The notes under the pieces are model-generated. The model saw only the letters and a list, made by a program, of their open reading frames with translations, made no database searches and had not been told where the DNA came from. Source: Dipteris shenzhenensis (lineage: Eukaryota). From it: DNA of 64,000 nucleotides. The stretch lies in the NCBI GenBank assembly GCA_047967505.1, contig CM106538.1, one strand, 5' to 3'. A program made the position numbers and the translations under genes. Shown piece after piece: positions 1-27,748 of this stretch. Every line of letters starts with the position of its first letter. The first letter of the stretch is position 1.

Positions 1-227
1 CCCCCACCCCCACCGCCCAACATGTGGCTCATGCCACATGTGCCTCCCCCACCCCCCAACATATGGCTTGAGCTACATGTGCCCCGCCCAAAACATGTGC
101 CATGAGCCACATATGGCTTAAGCCACATGTGCCCCCCATGTAACGTGAGCCACATGTGCCCCCCCCCCCCCCCCCCAACATATGGCTTGAGCCAGATGTC
201 TCCCCCCCCCTGGCATGAGCCACATGT
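1..227. repeat. Array of palindromes ACAT(G/A)TGGC-(T/A/G)TGA-GCCACATGT separated by poly-C runs (array A, copy 1; continues beyond the window start)
   Basis: Repeated acatgtggctcatgccacatgt / acatatggcttgagccacatgt units; colinear with ~16814-17034. Confidence 0.9.
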
Positions 228-229
228 TT

Positions 230-3200
230 TTTATTGCTTGTTGTCCATGACACTAAGGCAAAAACGCTGATTTATGCTTAATCGACAATGCAACGCATAT
301 GCGATCATCAAAATACTTTGCACACATCTCAATCTAGGTATTATTGACTTACATGCAAAGTGGCGTGCCCATCCCATAAGTATTTAGTCGAATAACACAT
401 CTAGGACAGCGTTTTTTGACGGTTGTGCATGACACTAAGGCCAAAACAGTGTTTAATGCTTGTTCGACAATGCAAAGCATACCCGATGGGCACAATAATT
501 TTCACACACCTTCAACTAGATGGAATTGACTTACATGCAAAGTGGCACACCCATCCCATAAGTGCTTGATCGGATAACATACCTAGCAGCGTGTTTTTTT
601 ACGGATGTGCATGACACGAGCAAAATAGTATTTAATGCTCGATCGACCATGCAAAGGATATCCGATGGGCATCACACTTTTTGTACGCCTCAACCTAGGT
701 GGTATTGAAATGTTCTTAATGAGGCACACCCATCCAATAAGTCATTGGTCAGATAACACACCTAAGGGTGTGTTTTTTTGCGGATGTCCATATCACTAGG
801 AAAAAAATGGTGTATAATGCGTGATCGACCATGCAAAGCATATCCGATGGTGACAATACTTTGCACGCACTTCAACGTAGTTGAAACAGACTTGCATGCA
901 AAGTGGAGCCCCCATCCGATAAGTACTTATTTGAATAACACGCCTACGGTCGTGTTTTTATATGGTTGTGCATGACACAAAGGCAAAAACGGTGTTCTAT
1001 GCTTGATCGACAATGCAAAGCATATCCGATGGTCACAGTACTTTGCACACACCTTCAATTAGGTGGAATTGACTTACATGCAAAGTGGCATTCCCATCGT
1101 ATAAGTACTTGATCGGATAACATACCTAACAGCGTGTTTTTTTACGGATGTGCATGACACTAAGGCAAAAATGGTATTTAATGCTCGATCGACCATGCAA
1201 AGCATATCCGATGGGCACAATACTTTTCCTATACCTTAACCTAGGTGGTATTGGAATGTTCTCAAAGAGGCACACCCATCCGATAAGTATTTGGTTAGAT
1301 AACATACCTAAGGGCATGTTTTTTTGCAGATGTGCATATCCCTACGGGAAAAACGTTGTATAATTCATAATTGACCATGCAGAGCATATCCCATGGTGAC
1401 AATACTTTGCATGCATCTCAACCTAGTTGAAACGGACTTGCGTGCAAACTGGAGCCCCCATCCGATAAGTACTTGTTTCATTAACACACTTAGGACCGTG
1501 TTTTTTCATGGTTGTGCATGACACTAAGGCAAAAACGGTGTTTTATGCTTGATCGACAATGCAAAGCATATCCGATGGGCACAATACTTTGCACACACCT
1601 TCAACTAGGTGGAATTGACTTACATGCAAAGTGGCACTCCCATCCCATAAGTGCTTGATTGGATAACATACCTACTAGCGTGTTTTTTTATGGATGTGCA
1701 TGACACTAGAGCAAAAAAAGTATTTATTGCTCGATCGATCGTGCAAAGGATATCCGATGGGCACAACACTTTTCGTACACCTTAACCTATGTGGTATTGG
1801 AATGTTCTCAAAGAGGCACACCCATCCAATAAGTACTTGGTCAGATAACACACCTAAGGGCGTGTTTTTTTGCAGATGTGCATATCACTCGGGAAAAAAT
1901 GGTGTATAATGCATGATTGACCATGCAAAGCATATCCGATGGTGACAGTACTTTGCACGACCCTCAAAGTAGTTGAAACAGACTTGTGTGCAAAGTGGAG
2001 CCCCCATTCGATAAGTACTTGTTTAATTAACACACTTAGGACCGTGTTTTTTCATGGTTGTGCATGACACTAAGGCAAAAACGGTGTTTTATGCTTGATC
2101 GACAATGCAAAGCATATCCGATGGGCACAATAGTTTGCACACACCTTCAACTAGGTGGAATTGACTTACATGCAAAGTGGCACTCCCATCCCATAAGTGC
2201 TTGATCGGATAACATACCTAGCAGCGTGTTTTTTTACGGATGTGCATGACACTATAGCAAAAATAGTATTTATTGCTCGATCGATCATGCAAAGGATATC
2301 CGATGGGCACAACACTTTTCGTACGCCTCAAACTAGGTGGTATTGGAATGTTCTCAAAGAGACACACCCATCCGATAAGTACTTGGTTAGATAACACACC
2401 TAAGGGCATGTTTCTTGCGGATGTGCATATCACTCAGGAAAAAATGGTGTATAATGCGTGATCGACCATGCAAAGCGTATCCGATGGTGACAATACTTTG
2501 CATGCACCTCAAGGTAATTTAAACGGACTTGCGTGCAAGGTGGAGCCCCCATCCGATAAGTACTTGTTTGAATAACACACCTAAGACCATGTTTTTTCAT
2601 GGTTGTGCGTGACACTAAGGCAAAAACGGTGTTTTATGCTTGATCGACAATGCAAAGAATATCCGATCGGCACAATACTTTGCACACACCTTCAAATAGG
2701 TGGAATTGACTTACATGCAAAGTGGCACGCCCATCCCATAAGTGCTTGATCGGATAACATACCTAGCAGCATGTTTTTTTACGGATGTGCATGACACGAG
2801 CAAAAATAGTTTTTAATTGTCGATCGACCATGCAAAGGATATCCGACGATGGGCACAAAACTTTTCATACACCTCAACCTATGTGGTATTGAAATGTTCT
2901 CAATGAGGCACACCCATACGATAAGTACTTGGTCAGATAACACACCTAATGGCGTGTTTTTTTGCGGATGTCCATATCACTAGGAAAAAAATGATGTATA
3001 ATGCGTGATCGACCATGCAAAGCATATTCGATGGTGATAATACTTTGCACGCACCTCAAAGTAGTTAAAACGGACTTGCGTGCAAAATGGGGCCCCCATC
3101 CGATAAGTACTTATTTGAATAACACACCTACGACCGTGTTTTTATATGGTTGTGCATGACACAAAGGCAAAAACGGTGTTTTATGCTTGATCGACAATGC

Positions 3201-6200
3201 AAAGCATATCCGATGGGCACAATACTTTGCACACACCTTCAATTAGGTGGAATTGAGTTACATGCAAAGTGGCATTCCCATCGCATAAGTGCTTGATCGG
3301 ATAACACACCTAGTAGTGTGTTTTTTTACGGATGTGCATGACACTAAGGCAAAAATGGTATTTAATGCTCGATCGACCATGCAAAGCATATCCGCCGATG
3401 GGCACAATACTTTTCCTACACCTTAACCTCGGTGGTATTGAAATGTTCTCAAAGAGGCACACCCATCCGATAAGTACTTGGTCAGATAACATACCTAAGG
3501 GCATGTTTTTTTCTGGATGTGCATATCACTACGGGAAAAATGTTGTATAATGCGTAATCGACCATGCAGAGCATATCCGATGGTGACAATACTTTGCATG
3601 CATCTCAACCTAGTTGAAACGGACTTGCGTGCAAACTGGAGCCCCCATCCGATAAGTACTTGTTTGATTAACACACTTAGGGCCGTGTTTTTTCATGGTT
3701 GTGCATGACACTAAGGCAAAAACGGTGTTTTATGCTTGATCGACAATGCAAAGCATATCCGATGGGCACAATACTTTGCACACACCTTCAAATAGGTGGA
3801 ATTGACTTACATGCAAAGTGGCACTCCCATCCCATAAGTGCTTGATCGGATAGCATACCTAGCAGCGTGTTTTTTTACGAATGTGCATGACACTAGAGCA
3901 AAAATAGTACTTAATGCTCGATCGACCATGCAAAGGATATCCGATGGGCACAACACTTTTCGTAGTTGAAACAGACTTTTGTGCAAAGTGAAGCCCCCAT
4001 CCGATAAGCACTTGTTTGATTAACACACCTAGGACCATGTTTTTTCATGGTTGTGCATGACACTAAGGAAAAAACGTTGTTTTATGTTTGATCGACAATG
4101 CAAAGCATATCCGATGGGCACAATACTTTGCACACACCTTCAACTAGGTGGACTTGACTTACATGCAAAGTGGCACACCCATCACATAAGTGCTTGATCG
4201 GATAACATACCTAGCAGCGTGTTTTTTTACGGATGTGCATGACACGAGCAAAAATAGTATTTAATGCTCGATCGACCATGCAAAGGAAATCCGATGGGCA
4301 CAACACTTTTCGTACGCCTCAACCTAGGTGGTATTGAAATGTTCTCAAAGAGGCACACCTATCCGATAAGTACTTGGTCAGATAACACACTTTAGGGCGT
4401 GTTTTTTTGCAGATGTGCATATCACTAGAGAAAAAATGGTGTATAAGGCGTGATCGACCATGCAAAGCATATCCGATGGTGACAATACTTTGCACCCACC
4501 TCAATGTAGTTGAAACGGACTTGTGTGCAAAATGGAGCCCCCATCCGATAAGTACTTGTTTGAATAACACACCTAAGACCGTGTTTTTTCATGGTTGTGC
4601 ATGACACTAAGGCAAAAACGGTGTTTTATGCTTGATCGACAATGCAAAGCATATCCGATGGGCACAATACTTTGCACACACCTTCAACTAGGTGGAATTG
4701 ACTTACATGCAAAGTGGCACGCCCATGCCATAAGTGCTTGATCGGATAGCATACCTAGCAACGTGTTTTTTTACGGATGTGCATGACACTAGAGCAAAAA
4801 TAGTATTTAATGCTCGATCGACCATGCAAAGGATATCCGATGGGCACAACACTTTTCGTAGTTGAAACAGACTTGCGTGCAAAGTGGAGCCCCCATCTGA
4901 TAAGTACTTGTTTGATTAACACACCTAGGACCGTGTTTTTTCATGGTTGTGCATGACACTAAGGAAAAAACGTTGTATTATGCTTGATCGACAATGCAAA
5001 GCATATCCGATGGGCACAATACTTTGCACACACCTTCAACTAGGTGGAATTGACTTACATGCAAAGTGGCACTCCCATCCCATAAGTGCTTGATCGGATA
5101 ACATACCTAGCAGCTTGTTTTTTTACGGATGTGCATGACACTAGAGCAAAAATAGTATTTATTGCTCGATCGATCATGAAAAGGATATCCGATGGGCACA
5201 ACACTTTTCTTATGCCTCAACCTAGGTGGTATTGGAATGTTCTCAAAGAGGCACACCCATCCGATAAGTACTTGGTCAGATAACATTTCTAAGGGCATGT
5301 TTTTTTACGGATGTGCATATCACTCGGGAAAAAATGGTGTATAATGCATGATCGACCATGCAAAGCATATTCGATGGTGACAATACTTTGCATGCACCTC
5401 AACGTAGTTGAAACGGACTTGCGTGCAAAGTGAAGCCCCCATCTGATAAGTACTTGTTTGAATAACACACCTAGGGCTGTGTTTTTATATGGTTGTGCAT
5501 GACACTAAGGCAAAAACGGTGTTTTATGCTTGATCCACAATGCAAAGCATATCCGATGGGCACAATACTTTGCACACACCTTCAACCAGGTGGAATTGAC
5601 TTACATGCAAAGTGGCATTCCCATCGCATAAGTACTTGACCAGATAACACACCTAGTAGCGTGTTTTTTTTACGGATGTGCATGACACGAGCAAAAATAG
5701 TATTTAATGCTCGATCAACCATGCAAAGCATATCTGATGGGATCAATACTTTTCACACGCCTTAACCTAGGTGGTATTGAAATTTTGTCAAAGAGGCACA
5801 CCCATCCGATAAGTACAAGTGGTCAGATAACATACCTAAGGGCGTGTTTTTGTGTAGATGTGCATATCACTACGGGAAGAACGTTGTATAATGCATAATC
5901 GACCATGCAAAGCATATCCGATGGTGACAATACTTTGCACATATCTCAACCTAGTTGAAACGGACTTGCGTGAAAGGTGGAGCCCCCTCGGAGCCCCCAT
6001 CCAATAAGTACTTGTTTGATTAACACACTTAGGGCCGTGTTTTTTCATGGTTGTGCATGACACTAAGGCAAAAACGGTGTTTTATGCTTGATCGACAATA
6101 GAAAAGCATATCTGATGGGCACAATACTTTGCACACACCTTCAACTAGGTGGAATTGACTTACATGCAAAGTGGCACACCCATCCCATAAGTGCTTGATT

Positions 6201-6335
6201 GGATAACATACCTAGTAGGCTCGTGTTTTTTTACGGATGTGCATGACACTAGAGCAAAATTAGTATTTAATGCTCGATCGACCATGCAAAGGATAACTTG
6301 GCATGTCCATCCGATGAGTACTTGATCGGATAACT
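230..6335. repeat. ~182-bp tandem satellite (~33 monomers) with a 3-mer (~546-bp) higher-order repeat
   Basis: The cat(g/a)(a/t)cac motif recurs at ~182-bp spacing (e.g. 428, 610, 789, 971, 1153). Three monomer types cycle A-B-C. Each monomer has internal dyad symmetry (gatggg..actttgca..ctagg..tgcaaagt..cccatc). Confidence 0.97.
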
Positions 6336-6459: not shown

Positions 6460-9400
6460 ATGGCTATAGATTTTGTTCCAGGGATGAATGTGATTTTATG
6501 TAGCAAAAGAGAAGTAGTTGCATTTGCTACAATCCATAATAGTGATCCCAATTCAGTTTGCCACTTTCCAAGACTTGGCGAAGATAAGGTGGCAGTTACT
6601 GTATCAAAGATTCTTAGCGCACATGTTGAGCTAAAGTAAAAATGTGGAGATATGGAAACACTTGGAGATGTTATGCCCTACAATACATCCAACAAATCAG
6701 TTATGGCATGGGACAAAGATGAGACTTATGCAACAAACATTATCAAGAATACAAAGTGCACCACCTTGGATTTTACTATAGGGGACATTTTACAAATGAG
6801 ATCATTTGCAAATAAGACTGTAGCAGAAGTTGAAGTATTGGGATTTGAACAAGTGGAGCAATGGTCATTTGCACAGATGAGGATTCTAAAAGTCATTGAT
6901 GATGGTATGGTTGATAACATAACATCCTTATGTGATCCCTACTATGAGGTAGGCAAGAATATGAGATGGAGCATGCAATTTTAAAACATGAGAAAGAGGC
7001 ACGTGGTTTTCAATGATAAAGACAAGGTATACTACAATATCAAAGGACCTAAAAAGCGTGCCCATGTGCCAGGCTCTATCACTTCAAATGTGGATGATTT
7101 CAATATACTCAATTATAGAAGTGACATCTTATCTGGAGTGGATGAGTTCATTGGTTCCGAGAAACAAAATGATTTTAGAAGCGAAGCCTTATCTGGGGTG
7201 GATGGATTCTTGCACAATGAGAAGGGCAAAGGTTTCAATAGCGATGTCTTGTCAAGTGTGAATGAGTTCATGCATATTAACAAACCTGGTGTCAATCAAG
7301 CTTGTGGATTTGTGAAAGCCATGCAAGATGTCCCAATGAGTGATGTTCTCTCAGGAGTGGAAGAGTTTCAAGGTTCTCAATACTCTCGTAGAATATTGAA
7401 TTCATTGAATGGTCCTAAGAGTATGTTAAAAACGAGGATGAGATCAACAGAGGATTATTCAATATTTAACTTTGATTGCGATATGGACAAGGATTGAATG
7501 ACCAATCATGGATGCTTGGTTACAAACAAATGTGAGGAGAAGAAGTGCATAAATACAGATAACAACGTGCACGAGGAACGAAAACGGTCATACATAAGCA
7601 TGAAGAGAAAGCGAATCCAGGCAGATCCACAAAAGCAACCAAAGAGGAAGAGAGTAATGAAGGAGGAGAACATGTTAAATGCCTTGGGATATCTATGTTG
7701 CAAGCGAAGATGTATGCGCTTCATTGATCTTGCAGACATCAGGGAATGTAGAGGACACGTGTGGCAAAGAAGAGGAAGCGAAAGAAATGAATACCTTCTC
7801 ACAAGTCTCTCTTGCTTTCTTCAGAATGGCAATAAAAGACTAAGTTCAAGACAAAAGGTAAAACCTCTCGTAAATGTAAAAAGGATTTGCAATAAGGCAT
7901 ATCGCAATATTGATGGATTATCCCATGGTACATATTGGGATTTAGTCACCAAGGCAAAGGGCGGCAACAAATTTAGCATTCACGGTAATAGAGGAAGGTC
8001 CAAATCAAGAATCTCAACTGTCAGGGCAGCAGCAATTTTGCAAGACTTCATACATGAAAATGCTTTACCTCAACCCCATATATCCACCAAACTTCCTAAC
8101 GGTGACGCGATCACTGAAATGCACCTTCCAATGGGCTTGACAAAGCTCGAAGTATTTGACTCTATTGCAGAAAAGCAAAGGCAAAGAGGGGATGCCGTAG
8201 CTTCTTCTCATACTTTGTATACTCTTTGGAAGAAGAACTTTGGATATGTTAAAATCCCAAGGAGGCAAAAAATGTCAAAGTGCAATGTCTGTGATGATTT
8301 AAAGCGAGCGATTGAGAGTGCAACATGTCCAAATCAAAGGAAATTATACTAAAAAAACCGAAAATCTCATCATGACCTTATTTGACATTCCAGACAAAAA
8401 TATGCATTTTGGAAGGAGCAAGCTATTTCGCATCCCGATGACTACATGTGCCTTATTGTAGATGGCATGGATCAGAATACAACAACATTGCCTTGTTTTG
8501 TTGCCACTTCACCTAAATTACAAGGAAAGCACTTTCTAAAGACACATCTATGTGGAGTGTTAGTGCATGGAATTAAGTTCTTTACAGATATATGGATTGA
8601 TTCCTTGCATCTACATGATAGCAATCAAGTTGTAACATCTATTATGAAGGCAATTCACAATATACATGCAGAAAAAGGTCGCCTACCACCGACTTTGAGA
8701 ATACAAGCTGATAATTGCTGGCGAGAAAATAAGAATGTACTCATGTTTGCATTCTGCTCCATGCTAGTTTCTCATCGAATCTTCAATGAGGTCGAATGTG
8801 GATTTTTGTATGTTGGGCATATACATGAGGATATCGATCAGGTTTTTAGCACAGTCTCAAGGGAGCTTAAATGCAAGGATGTGGAGACAATAGATGACTT
8901 GGTAAGAAGATGTGGCAGGCAAGTTGATGGTCATAAGGAAAGTACAGTATGTGAGAGGCTCGAAAGAATGTACGATTGGAAGAGCTTCATTCTACCTTTC
9001 ATACAAACGGGTGGTGATGCATTGACAGGTCATACCAATCCACACTACTTTCATTTTTTTTTAAAAGATGAAAAACCTGTAATGCAATGGCAACAGTATT
9101 CTCATGATATAAAATGGGAACCTGAAGAACCTTACAGTCTCTTAACTTCAATTCCCAGCAAGGAAAGGTATCCAACATGGGCTCCTATATAAGAATTCAA
9201 TGAGAGGTCTAACTGTGAAATAGAAGGACTAAAAGCATTTATTACATACAAAGAGGAAATGCTCCAGAGATATCCTGATTCGAAGCCTACTTGGAGAGAA
9301 CACACTACCACTGTAATTAACAAGACATGAAATTTAATAAAGGACCTTGAGAGAATGCGAGGCTCAAAGGATGTCAAGGAAGAATGCAATATGTTTTGGC

Positions 9401-9931
9401 CAAATGTTCATAACGATTTGCGCCCAGCTCCAGTCTTTGAAAATGAATTTGTATCATTACTCCCACGTCCATATTGTGGACCGAAGAAGAGAGAGTTTAT
9501 GCCACAAGTAGATATAGAGGTCGATTGTTTTGTTGTGGTTCGGCCATCGGATGATGAGTATGAGAATGTGAAGTTTTGGGTTGCAAAAGTAGTTGATGTG
9601 CAAAGAGATGACCAAGGGAGAGCTACAACATTTACAGCGGTATGGTATGAGCCAAAGGGCAGGAAGGAGAATATGGATAACAACACATTGTATACTAATT
9701 GTATAACGAAGGAGTGGGTCCCAAATGATGAAGCGATCTCTCAAGTTTCGACAGAGACAATCATAGTGTCTTGGCATTCAAGGGCAAAGAAATCAAAGAA
9801 GCGCATGGGATATGAGGTAGAAGGAAAAATAAAAATACCACAGCAAACTATTTTTGCATATACACGAATATTTAAGGATGCTCGCCATGGAGGAAGTAGA
9901 AGGAGACAGCGCAAATGAAGAATGTCCATGA
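6460..9931 (+). pseudogene. Sola-like DDE transposase pseudogene (~1,150 codons) with an N-terminal Tnp1/En/Spm-like domain, Cys-rich motifs and a C-terminal beta-rich domain
   Basis: ORFs starting at 6652, 6988, 7498, 8446 and 9355 are all in one frame, broken by about 7 point stops and a probable frameshift near 9850. Motifs: VVAFATIHNSDP..HF..LG..ETLGD..W, CCKRRC, KMSKCNVC, IVDGMDQ, QADNCWRENKN, VGHIHEDIDQ, FWVAKV..WYEP. Acceptor-like ctactgcag ends at 6430. Confidence 0.85.
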
Positions 9932-16011: not shown

Positions 16012-17610
16012 ACATTGTATTTAAAAAAAAAAGGACTTGTATAAAGTCCAATTCCAAAACTGGACTAAATACAAGTCTAAAGTTGTTTGAATATCATAGA
16101 CCCATGGTTTTTTTTCCATATACTTCAAAACAAATATTGCAATAATGGTTGAAACTTTACACACCCACTTTATAGAGTAACCATTGGTAGTTTTCCTAGC
16201 AACCTTTGAAAACCCAAATTTTGTCAAATTACCAAATACTAGATAAGCTTACAGAAATACCTTCTATGATTAACCAAATAATTACACTTTGGTCGACACC
16301 ACATAGTTTTGAACCAAAGTCCAAAGTATATCAAGATGACTTGTTCTCTTGAGAGATGGTGTACATATACACCTTCTTTGTGTAAAAATACATTGTTTAA
16401 GTGTAGGCCTTTTGCAATTATAATTGGATGTGTGCTTGTTTCGACCAACTTTATGATGAAGGTTGAACCTTGTCCCCCTATATTGTCACTGGTGGGGAAT
16501 CCAAGTAGAAGCAAAAATTGCATGTAGAGGAGATGACTTTTTGTTATATATATATATGTATGTATGATTTGATATCAATTATAAAATTTTCCAAAAAATA
16601 ATTCAAAAAATGCAAAACTTTTTGAAGTTTTAAACATTTTTTCAAATATGTGGCTTGAGCCATATGTGCCCCGCAACTCCAAAACATGTGGCGTGAGCCA
16701 CATGTGCCCCCCCCCCCCCCCCCCCCCGCCCCGCCCAACATATGGCTTGAGCCACATGTGCCTCCCCCCCACCCCTCCCCAACATATGGCTTGAGCCACA
16801 TGTGGCCCCCTCGCCCCCACCCCCACCGCCCAACATGTGGCTCATGCCACATGTGCCTCCCCCACCCCCCAACATATGGCTTGAGCTACATGTGCCCCCC
16901 CCCCCCCAAAACATGTGGCATGAGCCACATGTGCCCCCCATGTAGTGTGAGCCTCATGTGCCCCCCCCCCCCCCCCCCCCAACATATGGCTTGAGCCACA
17001 TGTCTCCCCCCCCCCCCTGGCATGAGCCACATGTGCCCCCCCCCCTCCCCCCCCCCAACATATGGCTTGAGCCATATGTTCCCCGCCCCTCCCAAACATG
17101 TTGCTTGAGCCATATGTTCCCCCCAAACATGTGGCTTGAGTCATATGTGCCCCCACCCCCAAACATGTGGCGTGAGCCACATGTGTCCCCAATGCCTCCA
17201 AAAAAAAAAAGAAAAGATATAGAGTTAAAAAAAAACATGTGTGTTGATGGTATAGATTTAAAAAAAAAAAATCAAAAAATTTCCCGCCATTCCCCACTTT
17301 CCTAATTTGAAATTTGAAAAAATTTCCCACCATCCCTCTCTTTATCTATGGCGGGACAGAGGAGAGGGGAGGCGAGTGGAGGGGAAATTTCAAAAAAACT
17401 CCTGCCATTCCCCACTTCCCTAATTTGACTCTTTCCTATTTTGAAATCTATGGCGGGACATAGGAGAGGGGAAGCGAGTGAAGAGAAAATTTCAAAAAAA
17501 CTCCCGCCATCCCTCTCCTTGACATTTCAAAAAATTCCCCACCATCCCTCTCCTTGACTCACCTCCCCTCTCTCCTCTATCCCCCTACCATCCCTCTCCT
17601 TGACTCTTGG
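16012..17610. mobile_element. Non-coding remnant of the same DNA-transposon family (terminus-like segment plus palindrome array)
   Basis: 16012-16140 is an inverted, diverged homologue of the right end of the complete element (ggacttgtataaagtccaatt..ggacta..gtc..ttgaatat vs reverse complement of 35260-35392). It has the ggtgtacatatacacc subterminal motif (~16357) and array A. The other end was not found. Confidence 0.6.
16645..17185. repeat. Palindrome array A, copy 2 (ACATGTGGC-TTGA-GCCACATGT units with poly-C spacers)
   Basis: About a dozen units seen directly; G-run-rich on the minus strand. Confidence 0.92.
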
Positions 17611-19490: not shown

Positions 19491-19517
19491 ATGGAAAAAA
19501 GCATACAAAACATTATC

Positions 19518-22500
19518 TTATGCATCTGAATCTCGTTCAGAGTCATCAGATTCATGTAATGTATTTGCGCTTGATGGGTTAAGTCTTGCCAAATGATGTT
19601 TAATATGGACACGACTTGGATCACGGATTGTGATACATTTTTCAACATTGTATCCACGCTTCATTTTAAAACTTCGTGTCCTCGATTTCCAGCAATGAAT
19701 AATGCTAGTGACTTCCATCTCTGTTAATCCCTTATTATTTGGAAACCATTCATGTTTCTTTTGCAAGCATATCTCATAGAGTTGTTTTATTGTATATCTT
19801 CTCGGGAGATTTTTCAATGGCTTTGGTTCATACCATAAAGCTGTGAATGTTATAGGAGTTCCCTTGTCATCCCTTTCTATCTTAGCAACCTTTGCAACCC
19901 AAATTGGGCCACCTTGGTCATCCAACTCTGAACTTGGATTAGATGCCCAAACTACAACAAATAGACCCTCTTCAATCTCATTAGATGGTATAAACTCTGG
20001 TAAGGGTTGTCTCCCTTCCTACCACAATATTTTCGAGGTAAAAGGTATTCCTCTACTTCCTCCATATCTACTAACATATTTATATCCAAAGGAAAACTTG
20101 GTGACCTAGCTTGTTCCGGCCAAAAGGATTCATAGTATTCAATGCTCATTAAGTTTTCTTGTCTTTCTAAAGATTGGATAAGTGCTTCAATTGATTTAAT
20201 TGTCTCCAAATTCTTAGTTGATTGCTTGGGATATTTCTGCATCATACTTTGAAGATGTTTAATGAAGGCTTTCAAGCCTTTCATTTCATCTATGTCAAGT
20301 GATTTGTTTTTTGCAAGAACAAATCTAGTTTCCTCTAATGAATTATTTGTTGTAATAAAGCATATGACTCACTCCATAAATGATCTCCATCTACTAAGTA
20401 GTGCTTCCATTGCATCATTGGAATATTGTTATGCATGTGAAACCGAAAGTAGTGTGGATTTGTGTGTCTTATTAGGGCATCATCTCCTGTTTGTAAATGT
20501 GGCTCTATGAATGCTCTCCAATCTGCCATACTCTCTAAGATAGCCACTTCTGATTCTTCCTTGCGAGACCCTCCAATTTTTTTCCCAATTCAAAATAGCA
20601 TATCCTCCATTGTCAAAACATCCATTGACTTCAACTCATCCGAGATAACACTGAAGATTTGATCTGTCTTCATGTGTATGGCTGACAAGAAGAAAGCCAA
20701 CTTCCACTTCTTCAAATATTTTCAAACCAACCAGCATAGAGCATAAAACAAATATATATTTATTTTTGTTCTCTCTCCAACAATTATCAACTTGTATTCG
20801 CAATATGTTAGGTAAACATCCACGAGCATCTGTGACCTTTCTTATTGCTTTCATGATTGATGTAACAACCTGGTTACTATCATGGTCATGCAAACTATCA
20901 ATCCATACATCACAAAAGATTCGGTATCCATGTACTAATACTCCACAAAAGTGTGTTTTTAGTCCACGTTTGCCCTCCAATGCTAGTGGGACACATCTAT
21001 ATCGTGGCAAAGTTGTTTTATTCTGGTCCATGCCATCAATGGTGATGCACATGGACTTATCGACATATGAAATAGCTTCCTCTCTCCAAGAAGCATACAA
21101 CTTTCGAGCATCCTGCACATGACGTAAATGGATTGATCGCCATTTAATATATCTTCCTCGCTGCTGCTCACATTTACTATGTTTAATGGCATTTTTAAAT
21201 TCATCACATGTCTTACATTTTGACATCCTTTGCTTTGATGGTGTCTTGACATGGAAAAAATCTCTAGGCCAAATTTTGTACAAGGTTGATTGTGAAATCA
21301 TGCTCTCGTCTCTATCTTATAAAGTTTTATTGACAGTTTCTAGTAGGCCAAATTTTATACAAGGTTGACTGTGAAATCATGCTCTCGTCTCTGTCTTGTA
21401 AAGTTTTATTGACAGTTTCTAGGATGACCTTCTTTGTCATTCTCGAAGGAAGATGTTGTTGACATTTGACACGTCCATCTAGCATTGTTTGTTGAAGATG
21501 AGGCTGTGGTAATGCATGGTCTTCGAGAACTTGCTTTAATGTTGCAATTGCATTTATAGTGCTTCCATGGCATTTAAGCTTGTAGGTATTTCCATGAATT
21601 ATATGAACTACTTTTTCTTTCACCTCTGCTCAGATGGTCCAGTATGTGCCATGTGATAGTCCAGTTAAGCATTGATATCCTCGATTGCAAATGGGTCTCC
21701 CATTAACCATGGGTTTCAATCTAGGTTTACAGTGTCTTGTGCTCAAATCTTGATCAGTGCCTTGAAGAAGAAAGCATAAAAACTCTTGAAGAAGATAATT
21801 ATGTCTATTAGGGGCTGTCTTACTCCAAATACCAAGGCGTATGGCTGGACAATCATCTTTCCCAACTTTTCTAATGCAAAGTCTCTTACAACAAACTTGC
21901 ATAAGCATCCTTTCCATATTCTCCTCGGATAACATTACATGTCTCTTTGGTTTTGGAATTGATGCCATGATTCTTTGCCTCTTCACACTCACATACTTTC
22001 TTTTTGTAAACAGTGTCTTGCATTTTCCAGTTATAAGACCATTAAACCTCGAATCCATTTCCCTTGAATCTTCATCTCTTTAATCAAATGCTGTGTGGGC
22101 TTGAGAATTATTTGATGCCTTATAATATCTTGAAAATGGCAATCTGGTAGACATGTTCATTGATGTCAATTTGTTGCCAATGCCTCTTGAATTTTGTGGT
22201 TGAACTCTTTCTCCTTCGTAACTCAAGATTCTCCCATCTATATTCTCTGGCATGCTAGCAACAATATTACAAACAACATGACAAGTCTTAGATTCTCTGC
22301 CCCCTTTGCCTTGCATTCGAGTGGTAACATCATGATCATTGTCACTAATATCATCAATTCCTGTTATTGCATCACTTATCCCATCGATCTTTGCATGTAT
22401 TTTTCTTTGTGGTCCCATCTTATTATTCTCAACACAAGACAAGTCTTTTATATTAGTAAGCATGTTTGAGTCACTTGCAACACACGACAAGTCTTCTATA

Positions 22501-23394
22501 CCAGTGAGCCTATTCGAGTCACTTGCAACATAGGACAAGTCTTCTATACCAGTGAGCCTATTCGAGTCACTTGCAACACAGGACAAGTCTTCTATACCAG
22601 TGAGCTTGTTCGAGTCACTTGCAACACAAGACAGGTCTTCTATATTAGTGAGTATATTTGAGTCACTTGCAATACAAGAAACCTTTTCTGCATCAACATC
22701 TTTTATTCATAATATCCTCAATACCTATGAGGATGCCACTATGATACTCTTGATCACTACTATAGCTTCTTATCAATTTGGATCCCATTTGTGTTATAGT
22801 CCTTTTCTTCTAATAATATTCTGTTGTGTCTTCCGTGACATTGAAGGAAACTGTCTTGAGCAAACTTGATTTCAAGAAAGCTAACCCCCATTTACAAGTA
22901 CTATGAACTTGTAGATGATGGACGTCTAGATGTGAAGTACTATCCATTGCATTTTGAATGACACCTACACTAGTCAACTTAATTATCTCCACTATATAGA
23001 GAAAACTCTGAGCATAGCCCTTAAAGTTGCCAATTGCTAAAACTTCTATGGAGCAAGATAACATCTCTACTTTTTCCCCCTCAAAATAAGTTTTCTTTAT
23101 ATCTTGAAAGTATGTCTTTGGAACAATTTCGTCTTAGTCCCAGAGCGTTCTGTGTGCTTGCATATCAAATATGTCACATTGTAAGATATCTCCCAATGTT
23201 TCAAAGTCTCCATGTGGATATTTTAAATGTACTTCAGGATTTACAATGTTGGTGATTATCACTACACATCTTCTCTTACCACAACGTTGGAAATGACACA
23301 CATTCATAGGATCAAGACTATGAATTTGTCCAAAAGCCACCACTTTATTCTTCTTATATAACACCACATCCATACCCTCTGTTAGGGTGAATAC
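19518..23394 (-). pseudogene. Sola-like DDE transposase pseudogene, homologous over its full length to 6460-9931
   Basis: VVAFGQIHSLDP..CHF..G..HLKYPHGDFETLGD, CCKRLC, RMSKCKTC, TIDGMDQ, KTHFCGVLVHG, QVDNCWRENKN, SHTHED, HTNPHYFRF, IWVAKV..WYEP. Several stops and frameshifts, plus a ~79-bp internal duplication at 21266-21422. Splice acceptor ctaat..acag ends at 23395. Confidence 0.87.
22440..22680 (-). repeat. 48-bp coding minisatellite (16-aa repeat SCVASDSNRLTGIEDL, ~5 copies) inside transposase 2
   Basis: gagtcacttgcaacac...acaagtcttctataccagtgag repeated every 48 bp. Confidence 0.92.
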
Positions 23395-23504: not shown

Positions 23505-23670
23505 CGTAAATCCTAAACTTTAAACATTTAATCCCTAAACCCTAAACCCAAAATCCTAAACTCTTAAACACTAAATCCTAAACCCTAAAACCTAAATCCA
23601 AAACTCTAAATCCAAAACCCTAAATCCTAAATCCTAAATCCTAAACCCTAAACCCTAAACCCTAACCCTA
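23505..23670. repeat. Degenerate (CCCTAAA)n telomere-like tract, left arm of the foldback cassette
   Basis: ccctaaaccctaaa/tcctaaa repeats. Confidence 0.92.
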
Positions 23671-23699
23671 AAATAAAACCAAAATTTAATGATTTTTTT

Positions 23700-24850
23700 A
23701 AATTTGTGCAACAAGTTGGCAGGTTGGGGGGTATATCCAACCTGTTGCACAAATCAAGAAACCTGTTGCTTGAGCAACAGGTTGGGGGGTATATCCAACC
23801 TGTTGCACAAATCAAGAATTTTCTTGATTTGTGCAACAGGTTGGATATACCCCCCAACTTGTTGCTCAAGCAATGGGTTGGGGTGACCCCAACCCATTGC
23901 TCAAGCAACGGGTTGGGGGTTATAGGTTGGGGTCAACCTAACAGGTTGGATATATCTCCCAACCTATTGCTCAAGCAACAGGTTGGTGTCCCCAGGTTGG
24001 TTATATGCAACAGGTTGGGGGATATATCCAACGTGTTGCACAAATCAAGAATTTTCTTGATTTGTGCAATAGGTTGGATATATCCCCCAACTTGTTGCTT
24101 AAGCAACATGTTGGGGTCCCGAGGTTGGATATATCCCCCAATGCAACAGGTTGGGGGGTATATCCAACCTGTTGCTCAAGCAACAAGTTGGGGTCAACCT
24201 AACAGGTTGGATATATCCCCCAACCTATTGCTCAAGCAATAGGTTGGGGTCCCCAGGTTGGATATATGCAACAGGTTGGGGGATATATCCAACGTGTTGC
24301 ACAAATCAAATTTGTGCAACACGTTGGATATATCCCCCAACCTGTTGCTCAAGCAACATGTTGGGGTCTCCAGGTTGGGATATATCCCCCAACCTGTTGC
24401 ACAAATCAAGAAATTTCTTGACTTGTGGAATAGGTTGGATATATCCTCCAACCTGTTGCTTAAGCAACAGGTTGGGTCCCCTATTGCTCAAGCAACAGGT
24501 TGGGTTCCCTGTTAATATATCCCCCAACCTGTTGCAAGTGGAACATGTTAATGGTGCACCTAATCTATTGCAAAAATCAAGGAATTTTCTTGATTTATGC
24601 AACAGGTTGGATATATTCCCCAACCTATTGCTCAAGCAATAGGCTGGGGGATATATTCAACCTATTCCACAAGTTAAGAAATTTCTTGATTTGTGCAGCA
24701 GGTTGGATATACCCCCCAGCAGTTGGGGGATATATCCAACCTGTTATATAAATCAAGAAAATTCATTGATTTTTGCAATAGGTTGGGTGCACCATTCACC
24801 TGTTCCACTTGCAATAGGTTGGGGGATATATCAAACCTATTGCACAAATT
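23700..24850. repeat. Palindrome array B built from the half-site AACCTGTTGC in alternating orientation
   Basis: Units acctgttgc-ttga/tcaa-gcaacaggt, caacaggttgggggatatatccaacctgttg and gcacaaatcaagaattttcttgatttgtgc. Confidence 0.93.
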
Positions 24851-24877
24851 GAAAAAAATCATTGGATTTTGGTTGTA

Positions 24878-25350
24878 TTTTAGGGTAAGGGTTTAGGGTT
24901 TAAGGTTTAGAATCTAGGATTAAGGATTTAGGGCTTAAGATTTAAGATTTAGTATTTAGGGTTTTGGGTTTATAATTATGGTTTTAGGGTTTAGGGTTTA
25001 GGGCTAAGGGTTTAGGATTTAGGGTTTAGGGTTTAAGATCTAGGGTTTAGGGTTTAGGGTTAGGGATTTAGGATTTAGCATTTAGGGTTTAGGGTTTATG
25101 ATTATTGTTTTAAGGTTTAGGATTTAGGGTTTAGGGTTTAAGGTTTAGTATATAAGGTCATGAGCTTAGAGTCTAGAATCTAGGGTTTAGGATCTGGAAA
25201 TTAGGTTTTAGAATTTAAGCTATAGGGGTTAAGGTTTAAGGTTTAGGGTTTAGGGTTCAGGGATTAGAATTGTTATATAAGTTTAAGAGCTTAGATTGTA
25301 TAACCTAAGATTTAGGGAACTTTAGGATTTAAGATTTAGGGTGTAAGATT
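24878..25350. repeat. Degenerate (TTTAGGG)n telomere-like tract, right arm of the foldback cassette
   Basis: tttagggtttagggtttaggg and variants. Confidence 0.93.
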
Positions 25351-26777
25351 TAAGGTATATAGACTATATAAAATATGCATTCCAAAGTATTTAGTTTAGA
25401 TATATAGACTATATATTATATGCTTTCCAAAGTGTTTTATTTATATCCAATATTACGTACCATCCTTTGCAAACGCTTTACTTTAAGTAATTATAAGTCT
25501 ACCTAGTCAAAGTATCCTATTGATTAGGGACAAGCACATAGGCTAAAAGCACACTGATTCATATTTTCTTACATTCATGTTGCATGGTGTATCAGAAGTA
25601 TGTGATAAGAAATATTCAAAAGAAAGATGTATTCAATATCATGGATATCTGGTGGTTGCTAAAGTAGAAAAATGATATGGATTCAATGATAGTGTAGTTT
25701 TGTGCAAAGCCTTAAACAAAGTTTAAGGCTTTTGCAAAGTATTACATATTGTAACAAAGATAAGCAAGTATGCTAAACCTCTTCAAGATTCTATGGTTTT
25801 AAATACCTACCTTACAAATGCATTATCTAATTCTTCATTCTTCGACTAACAAGTATTATACACATGGAAGAAAAGCATACATGCTAAAAGCACATGCGTA
25901 AAATTCAATATCTCCTCATTTTTTAAATTAATTCAATTCTTTGATTGACTACTTTTTAAAATTTAAAGGTTATTACTATATAATATACATAATTTTAAAT
26001 GTTATTAATGTATAATATTAATAATATATATATATTTATTTAAATTTATACAATAATTACATTATATTTATAATAGTTTTTAAGTTAATAATGTATATTT
26101 TTATTAAAACTAAAATTTAATATCTAGTTAATAGCAGGAAGAATATTATAGAGATTTTTCATATTAAGAACTATCTTACAATTGAAGAATAAGTATTATA
26201 TAAAGCACATATTTTCATTGTTATATTTTTTTAATTAATGTATTTATATAATAATTATATAATATTTATATTAATTTATAGATTAACAATATATATTTTT
26301 AGCAAAATTATATTTTAATATTAGTTAATAAAAAATTATTATATTATGGAGTAAAAATATTACAAATGGATTTCTCATATTAATTAAGTGTTGTAAGAAG
26401 AGTTTTTGGAGAGATTTATGGTTAAATTTTGTTTTGAAGTTGTTGCGTACGCAATAGGTAGGGAGGTTTGAGTGGTTTTGAGGTTGAGAGAGAAATTTGT
26501 AATAGATTGTTTTGTAATTTATTTTTTTTGAAGAATTATTGGGTGGCCAATAGGTTGGGAGAGTTTGAGTTTAAGAGAAATTTGTGACAATAGGTTGTGA
26601 GAGTTTGAGGTAAAGAGGGAAATTTGTGGGAAAAAAGATTTAATGCAAAAAATGATTTTTTGAAGTTGTTGCGTACGCAACAGGTTTTTGAGAAAAGAAT
26701 CGGATTTGAAAAAAAAATTCAAATTTACAAAAACTTGATTCTTAGAAGTTCTTGCGTATGCAATACGTTGGAAATGA

Positions 26778-27058
26778 ACTCACCTCTTGTAACATTTTGA
26801 AAATTTTGAGAATCATGCAATAGGTTGATGAGAGGAGAGAAGCGTGGAGTGTGAAATAATGAACTTTGAATGAAAGAGAGAGTGAAGAACGTTCTACTTA
26901 TAGTGAACCTAAAAGAACTAAAAACTAAAAAAAGCTAGCTTGACCTAAAAAAGCTGACTTGCCTGAAAAGCTACTCATTTCCTATAAAACTCTACTTCTC
27001 CTCATTCTCTCTTACAACTCTTCTTGAGCTCCTCCACCACCTCCCCACCCAGGTATTC
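26778..27058. promoter_or_regulatory. Putative bidirectional promoter with two short non-coding first exons
   Basis: Back-to-back TATA-like boxes: CTATAAG on minus at 26903-26897 and TATAAAA on plus at 26983-26989. Each is followed by a CT-rich leader and a splice donor (minus AG|GTGAGT at 26784/26783; plus CAG|GTATTC at 27052/27053). Confidence 0.55.
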
Positions 27059-27642
27059 TCTCTCTCCCTCCCTTCCCCTCTCCTCTCGCTTTCCATCCCC
27101 TCTCCTCCCACTCCCCTACTTCCCCTCTCCTCCCGCTTCCCCCTCCCCTCTCCTCCCTTCCCCTCCCCTCCCTTCCCTCTCCTCCCGCTTCCCCCTCCCC
27201 TCTCCTCCCACTTCCCCCTCCCCTCTTCTCCTGCATCCTCTCCCTCCCTCCTCTTCCCCTTCGGTCCTTTTTTTTTGTCTTTTCTTTTTGGAGTGGGGAG
27301 GCTGGGAGCAGAGAGACGAAAGGGCTTTTTTTTTTTGGGAGTGGGGAGGTAGGGACCGGTTTTGGGGAGGAGAGGTAGAGGCGGGGAGGTGGAGGAGAGG
27401 ATGGAGGTGGGAGTTGGGAGGGGGAGGTGATGGCGCGAGGGGGGAGGCAAAGGCGGGGAGAGGAAGGCGAAGGCGGGGAGGCAGGAGGGGGGACGGGGGA
27501 GGCGAAGGCGGGGAGGCAGGAGGGGGGACGGGGGAGGCGAAGGTGGGGAGGCAGGAGGGAGGCGGGGAGGGAGGTGGGGAAGCGGGGAGGGAGGCGGGGG
27601 ATGGGGAGGGGGACGGGGGAGCGGGCGGCGGGAGGGAGGAGG

Positions 27643-27748
27643 GGGGATTAACCCCTCCCCCTAACCTGTTGCGTGCACAACAGGTTAGGGGGGAGGGTTA
27701 ATCCCCTCCCCTAAGGCCCCTTAGGGCCCCTGTTGCGTGCGCAACAGG
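27643..27748. repeat. 64-bp near-perfect hairpin plus a second palindrome with the AACCTGTTGC core
   Basis: ggggattaacccctccccctaacctgttgcgtgcacaacaggttaggggggagggttaatcccc (27643-27706); cctgttgcgtgcgcaacagg (27729-27748). Confidence 0.9.

What the first reader, a model, noticed from the sequence alone, without database searches (positions are those of the whole stretch)
1..27748. Palindromic site arrays upstream of both transposases show compensatory co-variation and a parS-like 16-bp geometry
Seen: array A (1-227, 16645-17185) is ACATGTGGC-TTGA-GCCACATGT. Array B (23700-24850) is ACCTGTTGC-TTGA-GCAACAGGT. The two differ at two positions per arm, each compensated in the other arm, with the same 4-nt centre and G/C-run spacers. 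Isolated sites TGTTGCGTACGCAACA (26667-26682; variants at 26441 and ~26750, 27667, 27731) surround the promoter. Known: bacterial parS is the 16-bp palindrome TGTTTCACGTGAAACA, which shares 10 of 16 positions with the 26667 site. Inference: these are family-specific operators for a dimeric element-encoded protein, possibly a ParB/parS-like pair. Transposase binding or hairpin gene conversion are alternative explanations.
Basis: partly seen in the sequence, partly recalled or inferred. Interest (0 to 1): 0.8.

Follow-up and report, generated by a model that had tools for sequence, protein, structure and literature searches.

The report
Palindrome arrays beside ParB-like transposon gene
Two decayed copies of a large plant-type DNA transposon carry arrays of short palindromes whose arms differ in a mirrored way, and one array lies beside a gene for a ParB-like DNA-binding protein, as recently described in seaweed transposons.

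Summary
The arrays are real. The A-type 22-mer has 27 matches with up to 3 mismatches and the B-type 18, against 0 expected. The A and B consensus units differ at two mirrored, complementary positions per arm around a fixed 4-nt centre.

The window is eukaryotic and plant-like. Both "transposases" are pseudogenes of the DUF7869 family, about 52% identical in the core. Array B and five isolated B-type palindromes fill the space between transposase 2 and a divergent, roughly 1000-aa pseudogene. A model of a homologue of that gene matches the ParB/sulfiredoxin fold: the top 8 fold matches, Z 5.6-7.0.

The 10/16 likeness to the parS sequence quoted in the finding is not meaningful, because 2.7% of all 16-bp palindromes reach it. 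Within arrays, changes are mostly uncompensated transitions, 30 one-arm against 4 compensated, so the arrays are decaying.

Published work on red and brown algal giant transposons already reports ParB-like accessory genes, with adjacent inverted-repeat arrays in the red alga.

Best reading: lineage-specific binding-site arrays for the element's ParB-like protein (about 0.4). This is a new member of a known kind. Binding is untested.

The parts
1..227 (+). Array A, copy 1, cut by the window start. It holds 6 palindromic units (9-nt arms, 4-nt centre) separated by C-runs, and is a direct duplicate of 16814-17037.
242..6295 (+). Satellite of 182-bp units, about 33 copies, lying between array A copy 1 and transposase 1. 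A diverged, mostly inverted block lies at 39473-42561. This is context; membership in the element is not shown.
6985..9915 (+). Transposase 1 pseudogene. It is a single frame with 5 internal stops of mixed type (TGA, TAA) and carries the DUF7869 domain. The DGMDQ, QADNC and HEDIDQ motifs are present.
16645..17185 (+). Array A, copy 2, with 12 units at 31-76-nt spacing and C-run spacers. The asymmetric centre reads NTGA on the + strand in 15 of the 18 A units overall.
19626..22706 (-). Transposase 2 pseudogene (DUF7869), frameshifted across three frames. It is 52% identical to transposase 1 in the core and 30% at the N-terminus.
23507..23673 (+). Degenerate CCCTAAA-type telomere-like repeats, forming the left arm of an inverted pair that brackets array B.
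23708..24843 (.). Array B, with about 49 alternately oriented half-sites (GCAACAGGTTGG type). They are joined by three junction types of 4 nt, 9 nt and 26 nt. The array includes perfect palindromes with 38-39-nt arms.
24879..25267 (+). Degenerate TTTAGGG-type repeats, forming the right arm of the inverted pair around array B (166 nt, 80% complementary to 23552-23717).
26437..26830 (+). Three isolated B-type palindromes (cores at 26441-26456, 26667-26682 and 26750-26765; the 4-nt centre is GTAC or GTAT) and three lone half-sites (26547, 26587, 26817). All six point the same way.
27657..27748 (.). Two B-type palindromes, 27657-27692 (15-nt arms inside a hairpin of about 70 nt) and 27729-27748. 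They lie about 0.75 kb upstream of the first ATG of the ParB-like gene.
28493..31485 (+). ParB-like accessory gene, a pseudogene with 5 internal in-frame stops and one frameshift, about 1000 aa. The N-terminal core has the ParB/sulfiredoxin-like fold. The C-terminal domain is unassigned, with a weak collinear likeness to a beta-class DNA methyltransferase.

Best explanation
The arrays are cis-acting, lineage-specific binding-site arrays of a large DUF7869-type (possibly Sola1-like) cut-and-paste DNA transposon. They are most likely recognised by the element's own ParB-like accessory protein acting as a dimer on inverted half-sites spaced by 4 nt. Two diverged lineages of the element sit side by side in the window as dead copies. 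Each has its own half-site version, and the two base differences are mirrored in both arms.

Shown: the arrays, their relatedness and mirrored differences, their place between the divergently oriented transposase 2 and the ParB-like gene, and the ParB/sulfiredoxin-like fold of a modelled homologue. Inferred: that the protein binds these sites, that it acts as a dimer, and what binding achieves. By analogy with published proposals, binding could target a DNA-modifying or anti-silencing activity to the element's own DNA, or organise its ends. The copies here are pseudogenes, so the system is no longer working at this locus.
For: (1) Site distribution. B-type half-sites are confined to 23708-27750, the space between transposase 2 and the ParB-like gene. 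Of 41 matches in the window, 40 lie there, against 4.8 expected by chance for the whole window.
(2) The array units and the five isolated upstream sites keep the same arms and the same 4-nt spacing, but the centres differ (TTGA, TTAA, GTAC, GTAT, GTGC). This is the pattern expected for a dimeric binder that does not read the centre.
(3) The A and B consensus units differ at two mirrored complementary pairs. The chance that two right-arm substitutions are exactly the complements is about 0.003. Shuffle and slide controls are exceeded.
(4) The asymmetric centre points the same way relative to the neighbouring transposase gene in both lineages: NTGA on the + strand in 15 of 18 A units, and TTGA on the - strand in 8 of 11 B units, with 1 opposite and 2 symmetric.
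(5) The gene 3 family has a conserved core. For a model of its homologue P0049 (mean pLDDT 68), the eight best of 48,161 chains are all ParB/sulfiredoxin-fold proteins. They include KorB Z 7.0, PadC 6.8, a serine kinase of this fold 6.8, pNOB8 ParB 6.7 over 202 residues, sulfiredoxins 6.4 and 5.6, Spo0J 5.6 and SbnI 5.6. The best Foldseek rows are also KorB, ParB and Noc.
(6) Mismatched arm positions show no strand bias, 7 G-T type against 7 A-C type at the most variable pair. Nothing therefore favours an RNA or single-strand hairpin under selection.
(7) Precedent. Passages of bioRxiv 10.1101/2025.02.11.637652 report tandem arrays of inverted repeats next to a ParB-like accessory gene across red-algal Plavaka families, and propose self-binding. 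Passages of PMC12477816 report an opposite-strand ParB-like plus methyltransferase gene in a 21.5-kb Sola1 element.
Against: There are no binding data. Neither copy of array A has a ParB-like gene nearby: a profile search of all six frames finds only the gene at 28670-30679. The window does start inside array A copy 1, so a partner gene could lie outside.

The fold evidence is modest. Z does not exceed 7.0, and the tool warns that Z below 8 can be a common arrangement. Foldseek E-values are 0.18 or worse. No Pfam, NCBIfam or PDB sequence match was found.

Within arrays, changes are mostly on one arm: 19 against 1 compensated in A, and 11 against 3 in B. In array A, 16 of the 19 one-arm changes are G>A or C>T. 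The compensated A-T pair at column 6/19 occurs as often as chance predicts, 3 observed against 3.3 expected.

Some palindromes are perfect over 38-39 nt including spacer sequence, which points to mechanical inverted duplication rather than selection on a short site. The covariation amounts to two events between two lineages. Element ends (terminal inverted repeats, TIRs; target-site duplications, TSDs) were not found, so it is not proven that arrays, transposases and gene 3 belong to one element.
Confidence: 0.4

Rival explanations
1. The arrays are a self-propagating palindromic satellite with no dedicated binding protein. They grew by hairpin or cruciform-driven slippage, template switching and inverted duplication. 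The mirrored A/B differences arise because each new palindrome is copied from one half-site, not because pairing is selected. Any effect, such as fold-back transcripts feeding small-RNA silencing, would be a by-product.
For: Array B is built from one half-site in alternating orientation with three junction types. It contains perfect palindromes with 38-39-nt arms that include spacer sequence and nested larger inverted repeats of 85-113 nt at 86-92%. The whole block is bracketed by inverted telomere-like repeats, like a fold-back structure. Within arrays there are 30 one-arm changes against 4 compensated, which gives no sign of purifying selection on pairing. Array A copy 1 is simply a duplicate of part of copy 2. 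Single units fold strongly as single strands on either strand, z from -3.8 to -8.3.
Against: This reading does not explain why B-type sites also occur singly, with other centres but the same 4-nt spacing, spread over 1.3 kb in front of the ParB-like gene. It also does not explain why both lineages keep the arrays next to a DUF7869 transposase with the same centre orientation. Mean arm-to-arm identity within the six long palindromes is 0.79, no higher than the 0.80 between units, so there is no general arm-to-arm homogenisation.
Confidence: 0.3
2. The palindromes are binding sites of the DUF7869 transposase itself, either subterminal or internal enhancer-type sites related to the element's termini. 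The ParB-like gene would then be an unrelated passenger.
For: Both array types lie next to a DUF7869 transposase gene, with the centre oriented the same way relative to it. Array B begins about 1 kb from the 5' end of transposase 2, at 22706. The half-site begins AACC, as do the termini (AACCG...CGGTT) listed for the Ectocarpus Sola1 element in a supplement table of PMC12477816. That table also lists a 4-bp target duplication, the same length as the palindrome centre. Many DDE transposons carry repeated transposase-binding motifs near their ends (general knowledge, recalled).
Against: No terminal inverted repeats or target duplications were found, so the arrays cannot be placed relative to the element ends. 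The AACC likeness is four bases. It is not established that DUF7869 is the Sola1 transposase. Array A copy 1 is 6.7 kb from transposase 1, and copy 2 is downstream of both genes.
Confidence: 0.2
3. This is a true bacterial-type ParABS partition system, with a parS centromere, a CTP-dependent ParB clamp and a ParA motor, working in a eukaryotic element.
For: The only support is the ParB/sulfiredoxin-like fold and the array geometry.
Against: The 10/16 likeness to the quoted parS is at chance level. The conserved core reads DGQH followed by hydrophobic residues, with none of the arginines that follow that glycine in CTP-binding ParB proteins. The alignment is; the bacterial motif is recalled. 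No ParA-type ATPase was seen among the 59 reading frames scanned with Pfam. The elements are chromosomal transposon remnants.
Confidence: 0.03

Closest known systems
PAG3 (ParB-like N-terminus plus putative 2OG oxygenase) and its adjacent inverted-repeat arrays in giant Plavaka transposons of red algae (bioRxiv 10.1101/2025.02.11.637652; passages read)
   Same: Both are large DDE transposons with an accessory gene whose N-terminal part resembles ParB only at the remote or fold level; the paper's best match is the 7BNR ParB, which is also among my Foldseek rows. In both, tandem arrays of inverted repeats lie next to that gene. The proposal that the protein binds its own element is the same.
   Different: The transposase family differs: DUF7869 here, with no Plavaka, KDZ or CACTA Pfam hit above threshold. 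The C-terminal domain here could not be assigned; the model has pLDDT 43.5 and there is only a weak methyltransferase-like likeness. Sequence homology to PAG3 was not tested because no PAG3 sequence was at hand. The paper's supplementary figures on the arrays could not be seen, since bioRxiv supplements are closed.
[quoted passage not shown]
   Same: The transposase and a ParB-like gene of about 1000-1100 aa are divergently oriented. The element is giant. A weak likeness of the C-terminal domain to a beta-class N6-adenine methylase would fit the same architecture (M.RsrI, E 1.8, collinear over the SAM-binding loop region).
   Different: That paper does not mention palindromic arrays in the passages I read. 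It is not shown here that DUF7869 is the Sola1 transposase. No significant methyltransferase match was found.
Bacterial ParB/parS and relatives (KorB with its operators, Noc with its binding sites, and the F-plasmid SopB/sopC array, which I recall as a tandem array of repeats of roughly 40 bp, each with a short inverted repeat)
   Same: The DNA-binding protein has a ParB/sulfiredoxin-like N-terminal fold. The targets are short palindromes, here repeated in tandem at about 31-54-nt spacing, much like a plasmid centromere array.
   Different: The sites are 22-24 bp with a 4-nt spacer, not a contiguous 16-mer. The likeness to the parS sequence quoted in the finding is at chance level. No arginine-rich CTP motif is present (the motif is recalled). 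No ParA was seen. The host is a eukaryotic chromosome and the context is a transposon.
VANC anti-silencing proteins and their tandem-repeated target motifs in Arabidopsis VANDAL transposons (PMC5735166; abstract read)
   Same: A transposon-encoded, sequence-specific DNA-binding accessory protein acts on the element's own DNA. Its target motifs form tandem repeats in non-coding parts of the element and differ between related elements.
   Different: The protein family is unrelated, the motifs are not palindromes, and the transposon belongs to the Mutator superfamily. The VANC function is demonstrated by experiment, whereas nothing is demonstrated here.
En/Spm (CACTA) TnpA and its subterminal 12-bp motifs in direct and inverted orientation (recalled, not looked up)
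   Same: An accessory, non-catalytic element protein binds many short repeats, some as inverted pairs, clustered in non-coding parts of the element.
   Different: The protein family is different and the repeats are subterminal. Here the position relative to the element ends is unknown.

Membership tests
Pfam DUF7869 (PF25273) transposase-like family | Match to the family profile above the curated cut-off of 26 bits | tested here: met
   Transposase 1 (ORF 8386-9192) scores 182.6 bits, E 8e-54. Transposase 2 (ORF 20636-21316) scores 118.8 bits, E 2.8e-34. Full-length relatives of about 1055-1070 aa carry the same single domain.
Sola1 superfamily of DDE transposons | Transposase homologous to Sola1 reference transposases | not testable with these tools
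   No Sola1 profile or sequence was available. The idea rests only on the analogy with the Ectocarpus element. No paper holds 'DUF7869' or 'PF25273'.
Sola1 superfamily of DDE transposons | Terminal inverted repeats and a 4-bp target-site duplication | tested here: inconclusive
   Repeat searches and a self-BLAST found no long-range inverted repeats that would bound either element.
ParB/sulfiredoxin-fold proteins | N-terminal ParB/Srx-like fold | tested here: met
   For the model of homologue P0049 (pLDDT 68), the top 8 of 48,161 chains are all of this fold, Z 5.6-7.0, over model residues of roughly 90-285. This is modest: Foldseek E is 0.18 or worse, and the window's own product was not modelled, only a homologue 21% identical to it.
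ParB/sulfiredoxin-fold proteins | Significant sequence match to a ParB-type family profile | tested here: not met
   Nothing was found at E up to 0.01 in Pfam for the window ORFs or 10 relatives. No ParB family appeared at E up to 10 across 21 relatives. NCBIfam gave nothing relevant. The PDB profile search had 0 hits at E up to 10.
Bacterial ParABS partition systems | Arginine-rich CTP-binding motif in the N-terminal domain | tested here: not met
   The conserved core of the family reads DGQH followed by hydrophobic residues and an A-C pair, with no arginines there (alignment A1). The bacterial motif itself is recalled, not looked up.
Bacterial ParABS partition systems | Target site matching the parS consensus | tested here: not met
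   The match to the sequence quoted in the finding is 10/16. That level is reached by 2.7% of all perfect 16-bp palindromes and 6.8% of half-site permutations.
Bacterial ParABS partition systems | Linked ParA-type ATPase | tested here: inconclusive
   No such Pfam hit appeared among the 59 reading frames scanned (16, 6 further, 37). Short or intron-split genes would be missed.
ParB-like accessory gene with inverted-repeat arrays in giant algal DNA transposons (PAG3 type) | [quoted passage not shown] | tested here: met
   Array B and five isolated palindromes lie 0.75-4.8 kb upstream of the gene, between it and the divergent transposase 2. The element boundaries themselves are not defined.
ParB-like accessory gene with inverted-repeat arrays in giant algal DNA transposons (PAG3 type) | C-terminal enzymatic domain (2OG oxygenase in PAG3; DNA methyltransferase in the Ectocarpus gene) | tested here: inconclusive
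   The C-terminal model is unusable, pLDDT 43.5 from 4 sequences. The profile search against PDB gives only a non-significant but collinear match to M.RsrI, E 1.8. There is no Pfam hit.
ParB-like accessory gene with inverted-repeat arrays in giant algal DNA transposons (PAG3 type) | Sequence homology to PAG3 or to the Ectocarpus protein | not testable with these tools

The most novel reading that the evidence does not exclude
Diverged lineages of a DUF7869 (Sola1-like) giant transposon each keep a private 'centromere-like' array of 22-24-bp palindromes. Each array would be read by that lineage's own ParB-like (possibly methyltransferase-linked) protein, with protein and site specificity co-evolving by mirrored base changes. 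This would be a eukaryotic, transposon-borne self-recognition system of ParB/parS type that lets each lineage mark or protect only its own copies. It may be related to the ParB-like accessory genes of algal giant transposons and perhaps to the DUF3723 cargo genes of fungal Starships.
Probability: 0.25. Interest if true: 0.8.

Novelty: new member of a known kind. Interest (0 to 1): 0.5.

Why it matters
If the ParB-like protein reads these arrays, this locus adds a land-plant-type genome and another transposase family to a pattern reported so far only in seaweeds. That pattern is a giant DNA transposon carrying a prokaryote-style DNA-binding module together with its own array of binding sites. 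The two side-by-side lineages with mirrored half-site changes give a ready-made specificity-swap experiment (A-type against B-type sites, and the proteins of each lineage). Such an experiment could show how transposons tell self from non-self, as VANC does in VANDAL elements. If the arrays are only fold-back satellites, the finding is an ordinary feature of decayed repeat-rich DNA.

Tried and rejected
- Whole-genome search: no genome is held for this window.
- Palindromes elsewhere: one metagenome scan with the degenerate 22-mer gave 23 loci, each with a single match and none with an array. Both variable pairs were complementary in only 2 of 23. The one AT-rich hit (L002) is ordinary bacterial-looking coding DNA. 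The scan therefore gave no information on other family members.
- Viral-contig scans found nothing with P0001. The ParB-like alignment was too variable to make search patterns.
- Sequencing runs: only small shares (0.10 or less) of the sampled words were held, all as contigs, and no RNA holder was listed.
- Homodimer prediction for the ParB-like core returned 'no answer'. It counts neither for nor against.
- C-terminal domain of gene 3: the word-based search found only the query, and the structure model was too poor to use.
With homologue P0049 the nearest clusters are fungal DUF3723 proteins, score 0.95 with 173 shared features. Pfam does not find DUF3723 in any of 21 relatives at E up to 10, and the last profile search returned only unnamed relatives. 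This remains a lead only.
- Rfam: 0 families at gathering threshold in the whole window.
- Homology between the flanks of array A copy 2 and the region next to array B: only low-complexity matches of 24-42 nt.
- I considered each unit as a mini-element or as abutted transposon ends (10-nt ends plus a 4-bp spacer equal to the Sola1 target duplication). I rejected this because the flanks are not direct repeats.
- Arm-to-arm homogenisation in the long palindromes is not supported: identity is 0.79 within palindromes against 0.80 between units.
- A sub-threshold Pfam hit to the TNP1/En/Spm domain in ORF 23137-23424 is not backed by similarity to transposase 1 or P0001.
- The superfamily of DUF7869 could not be settled from the literature. 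Searches for 'DUF7869' and 'PF25273' found 0 papers, and the Sola passages read gave no sequence features.

Full report
What the window is. The DNA is eukaryotic and plant-like. It holds TTTAGGG-type repeats, two copia retrotransposons, long satellites and depleted CpG (observed/expected 0.26-0.74). No whole genome is held for it. The finding's 'two transposases' are real but dead. Transposase 1 (6985-9915, + strand) is one reading frame with five internal stops of mixed type. Transposase 2 (about 19626-22706, - strand) is spread over three frames. Both match Pfam DUF7869 far above its cut-off (E 8e-54 and 2.8e-34) and show the acidic motifs of a DDE-type enzyme. They are 52% identical in the core and 30% at the N-terminus, so they represent two old lineages and not recent copies. 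Full-length relatives of about 1055-1070 aa exist in public data. The few named ones are 'uncharacterized' or 'hypothetical' proteins of bivalves and a coral.

The observation. The A-type 22-mer has 27 matches with up to 3 mismatches, 26 of them in 1-227 and 16645-17185. The B-type 22-mer has 18 matches, 17 in 23761-24644. None was expected in 100 shuffles. Array A consists of 18 units with 9-nt arms and a 4-nt centre, separated by C-runs. The arms pair fully in 6 of 18 units. Positions 1-227 are a near-identical direct duplicate of 16814-17037 and end exactly where a 6-kb satellite of 182-bp units begins. The two A arrays are therefore not independent, and the first is 6.7 kb from transposase 1.

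About 49 half-sites of the GCAACAGGTTGG type alternate in orientation and are joined by three kinds of junction: 4 nt, 9 nt, and a 26-nt stretch that is itself palindromic. The array includes perfect palindromes with 38-39-nt arms. The whole block is bracketed by inverted telomere-like repeats.

Covariation. I aligned 34 units: 18 A-type, 11 B-type with the 4-nt junction, and 5 isolated sites. The A and B consensus sequences differ at columns 4, 8, 17 and 21, which form two mirrored, complementary pairs. Against the ten-pair stem, 88% of cells pair compared with 77.7% in shuffles. The covariation score is 0.269 compared with 0.126, and 0 of 500 shuffles reach either value. Sliding the partner columns by 1-3 positions destroys the signal. 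The chance that two right-arm substitutions are exactly the complements of two left-arm ones is about 0.003.

Inside the arrays the picture is decay. There are 19 one-arm changes against 1 compensated in A, and 11 against 3 in B. Sixteen of the 19 in A are G>A or C>T, as expected for methylated, silenced DNA. The compensated A-T pair at column 6/19 occurs 3 times against 3.3 expected from independent changes. At that pair, G-T type and A-C type mismatches are equal, 7 and 7. No strand looks selected for hairpin formation.

The parS argument. The 10/16 identity with the parS quoted in the finding is correct. However, it is reached by 2.7% of all perfect 16-bp palindromes and by 6.8% of permutations of the half-site. 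The '16-bp geometry' is also a cut through a 22-24-bp site with a 4-nt spacer. This part of the finding carries no weight.

The ParB-like gene. Downstream of array B, on the opposite strand to transposase 2, lies a gene of about 1000 aa (28493-31485) with five internal in-frame stops and one frameshift. It has no Pfam family. An exhaustive search found 27 relatives, mostly fragments, and none of the 10 scanned has a Pfam family either. The family shares a core with a TNxR...TLRPI...WEPVDGQH...AC pattern. I modelled a homologue, P0049, with 22 sequences; the mean pLDDT was 68, and above 80 over most of the core. In a search of 48,161 representative chains, the eight best matches are all ParB/sulfiredoxin-fold proteins. 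They are KorB, PadC, a serine kinase of this fold, pNOB8 ParB (202 residues aligned), two sulfiredoxins, Spo0J and SbnI, with Z 5.6-7.0. Foldseek ranks KorB, ParB and Noc first, but at E 0.18-0.4. Sequence-profile searches against PDB, Pfam and NCBIfam find nothing. I accept 'ParB-like fold' as likely, not proven.

The core lacks the arginines of the bacterial CTP-binding motif (the motif is recalled). I therefore expect no CTP clamp. The C-terminal domain is collinear with two full-length relatives, but it could not be assigned. Its model has pLDDT 43.5. The only hint is a non-significant match (E 1.8) to the SAM-binding-loop region of the N6-adenine methylase M.RsrI. Only one such gene is present in the window.

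Where the sites sit. B-type half-sites are confined to 23708-27750, the space between transposase 2 and the ParB-like gene. Forty of the 41 matches in the window lie there, against 4.8 expected by chance for the whole window. Besides the array there are five isolated palindromes and three lone half-sites, 0.75-2 kb upstream of the gene's first ATG. They keep the same arms and the same 4-nt spacing but have other centres (GTAC, GTAT, GTGC). The asymmetric centre has the same sense relative to the neighbouring transposase in both lineages: 15 of 18 A units, and 8 of 11 B units with 1 opposite and 2 symmetric. These features suit a dimeric protein reading two arms at a fixed distance. They are harder to explain by slippage alone. 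A-type sites occur only in the two arrays, apart from 11 scattered one-mismatch 10-mers, where about 5 are expected.

What is known. Passages of the Bostrychia genome preprint (bioRxiv 10.1101/2025.02.11.637652) describe giant Plavaka transposons with an accessory gene, PAG3, that has a ParB-like N-terminus detected only by remote homology. [quoted passage not shown] Passages and a supplement row of the Ectocarpus transposon paper (PMC12477816) describe a 21.5-kb Sola1 element. It carries an opposite-strand 1104-aa gene with ParB-like and DNA methyltransferase domains, and has 4-bp target duplications and AACCG...CGGTT termini. Its best match is a moss Sola1 transposase. Iyer and colleagues note ParB-type domains fused to adenine methylases in algae and chytrids (PMC4738411; passages). 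The VANC/VANDAL system shows by experiment that a transposon protein can bind lineage-specific tandem motifs in its own element (PMC5735166; abstract). What this locus adds is a different transposase family, a plant-like genome, and base-level mirrored divergence between two lineages.

Explanations. I put about 0.4 on lineage-specific binding arrays for the ParB-like protein. I put 0.2 on transposase-binding sites, 0.3 on a self-propagating fold-back satellite whose symmetry comes from inverted duplication, and 0.03 on a true ParABS-type partition system.

The main weaknesses of the leading reading are these:
- There are no binding data.
- No ParB-like gene lies next to array A in the window, although the window starts inside that array.
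- The element ends are undefined.
- The long perfect palindromes include spacer sequence.
- Arm identity within the long palindromes (0.79) is no higher than between units (0.80).

What could not be done. Comparison across family members, the decisive test, was not possible:
- The one metagenome scan returned only 23 single chance matches.
- The viral scans returned nothing.
- A homodimer prediction gave no answer.
- An Atlas lead to fungal DUF3723 proteins, which are conserved cargo of Starship giant transposons (passages of bioRxiv 10.1101/2021.12.13.472469), scored 0.95. HMMER does not confirm it.
- Whether DUF7869 is the Sola1 transposase remains open. No paper holds 'DUF7869' or 'PF25273'.

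Verdict. The parS likeness is spurious. The ParB-like idea is plausible and has a precedent. The copies are dead. This is a new member of a recently described kind, of moderate interest.

Noticed in passing
window 242-6295 and 39473-42561: A satellite of 182-bp units runs for about 33 copies. Roughly every third unit is 90-97% alike, which suggests a higher-order repeat of about 546 bp. A diverged block (about 64-70% identical) lies 34-39 kb away, mostly in inverted orientation, and is itself partly palindromic. The two blocks could be the arms of a very large inverted structure enclosing both transposase remnants.
   Followed up: partly
window 19321-19521: Three copies of another palindrome (core GGTGTATAGATACACC) sit in 57-59-bp tandem repeats just downstream of the 3' end of transposase 2. 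This is a second, unrelated palindrome family in the same element remnant.
   Followed up: no
window 27060-27640 and 17290-17600: A polypyrimidine tract (27060-27231) is followed by a polypurine tract (27300-27640), giving a long mirror or inverted structure right next to the B-type palindromes at 27657-27748. A shorter block rich in pyrimidine/purine tracts lies beside array A copy 2. Only low-complexity similarity links the two.
   Followed up: partly
window 46234-51224 and 56525-61542: Two copia-type retrotransposon copies lie in inverted orientation and are 96.4% identical over 5 kb. The second has an uninterrupted 1365-aa gag-pol frame (56780-60877, - strand).
   Followed up: no
window 23137-23424 (- strand): An ORF between transposase 2 and array B gives a sub-threshold Pfam hit to the TNP1/En/Spm transposase domain (PF03017; 17.9 bits against a cut-off of 21; E 0.003). 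Similarity to transposase 1 or P0001 is not significant. It may hint at a link between DUF7869 elements and CACTA-type elements, or be chance.
   Followed up: partly
homologue P0049 of the gene at window 28493-31485: The protein language-model search places the ParB-like core next to fungal DUF3723 proteins (score 0.95, 173 shared features). DUF3723 is a conserved cargo gene of Starship giant transposons. HMMER does not confirm the link.
   Followed up: partly
window 22430-22679: A 48-bp tandem repeat (5.2 copies, 89% matches) lies inside the N-terminal coding part of transposase 2. It produces a spurious weak leucine-rich-repeat hit.
   Followed up: no
window 35834-37661: A 1.8-kb CT-rich low-complexity block with nested periods of 2 to 245 bp lies downstream of the ParB-like gene.
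   Followed up: no
window 11729-12241 (- strand): A fragment of an alpha/beta-hydrolase gene (Abhydrolase_6, E 1e-6) lies between transposase 1 and array A copy 2. It may be a captured or interrupted host gene.
   Followed up: no
window 17095-17118, 24089-24112 and 24339-24362: Half-sites of the intermediate form GCAACATGTT, one step from both the A and the B type, occur on one arm of single units in both arrays. They show the path between the two consensus forms.
   Followed up: partly
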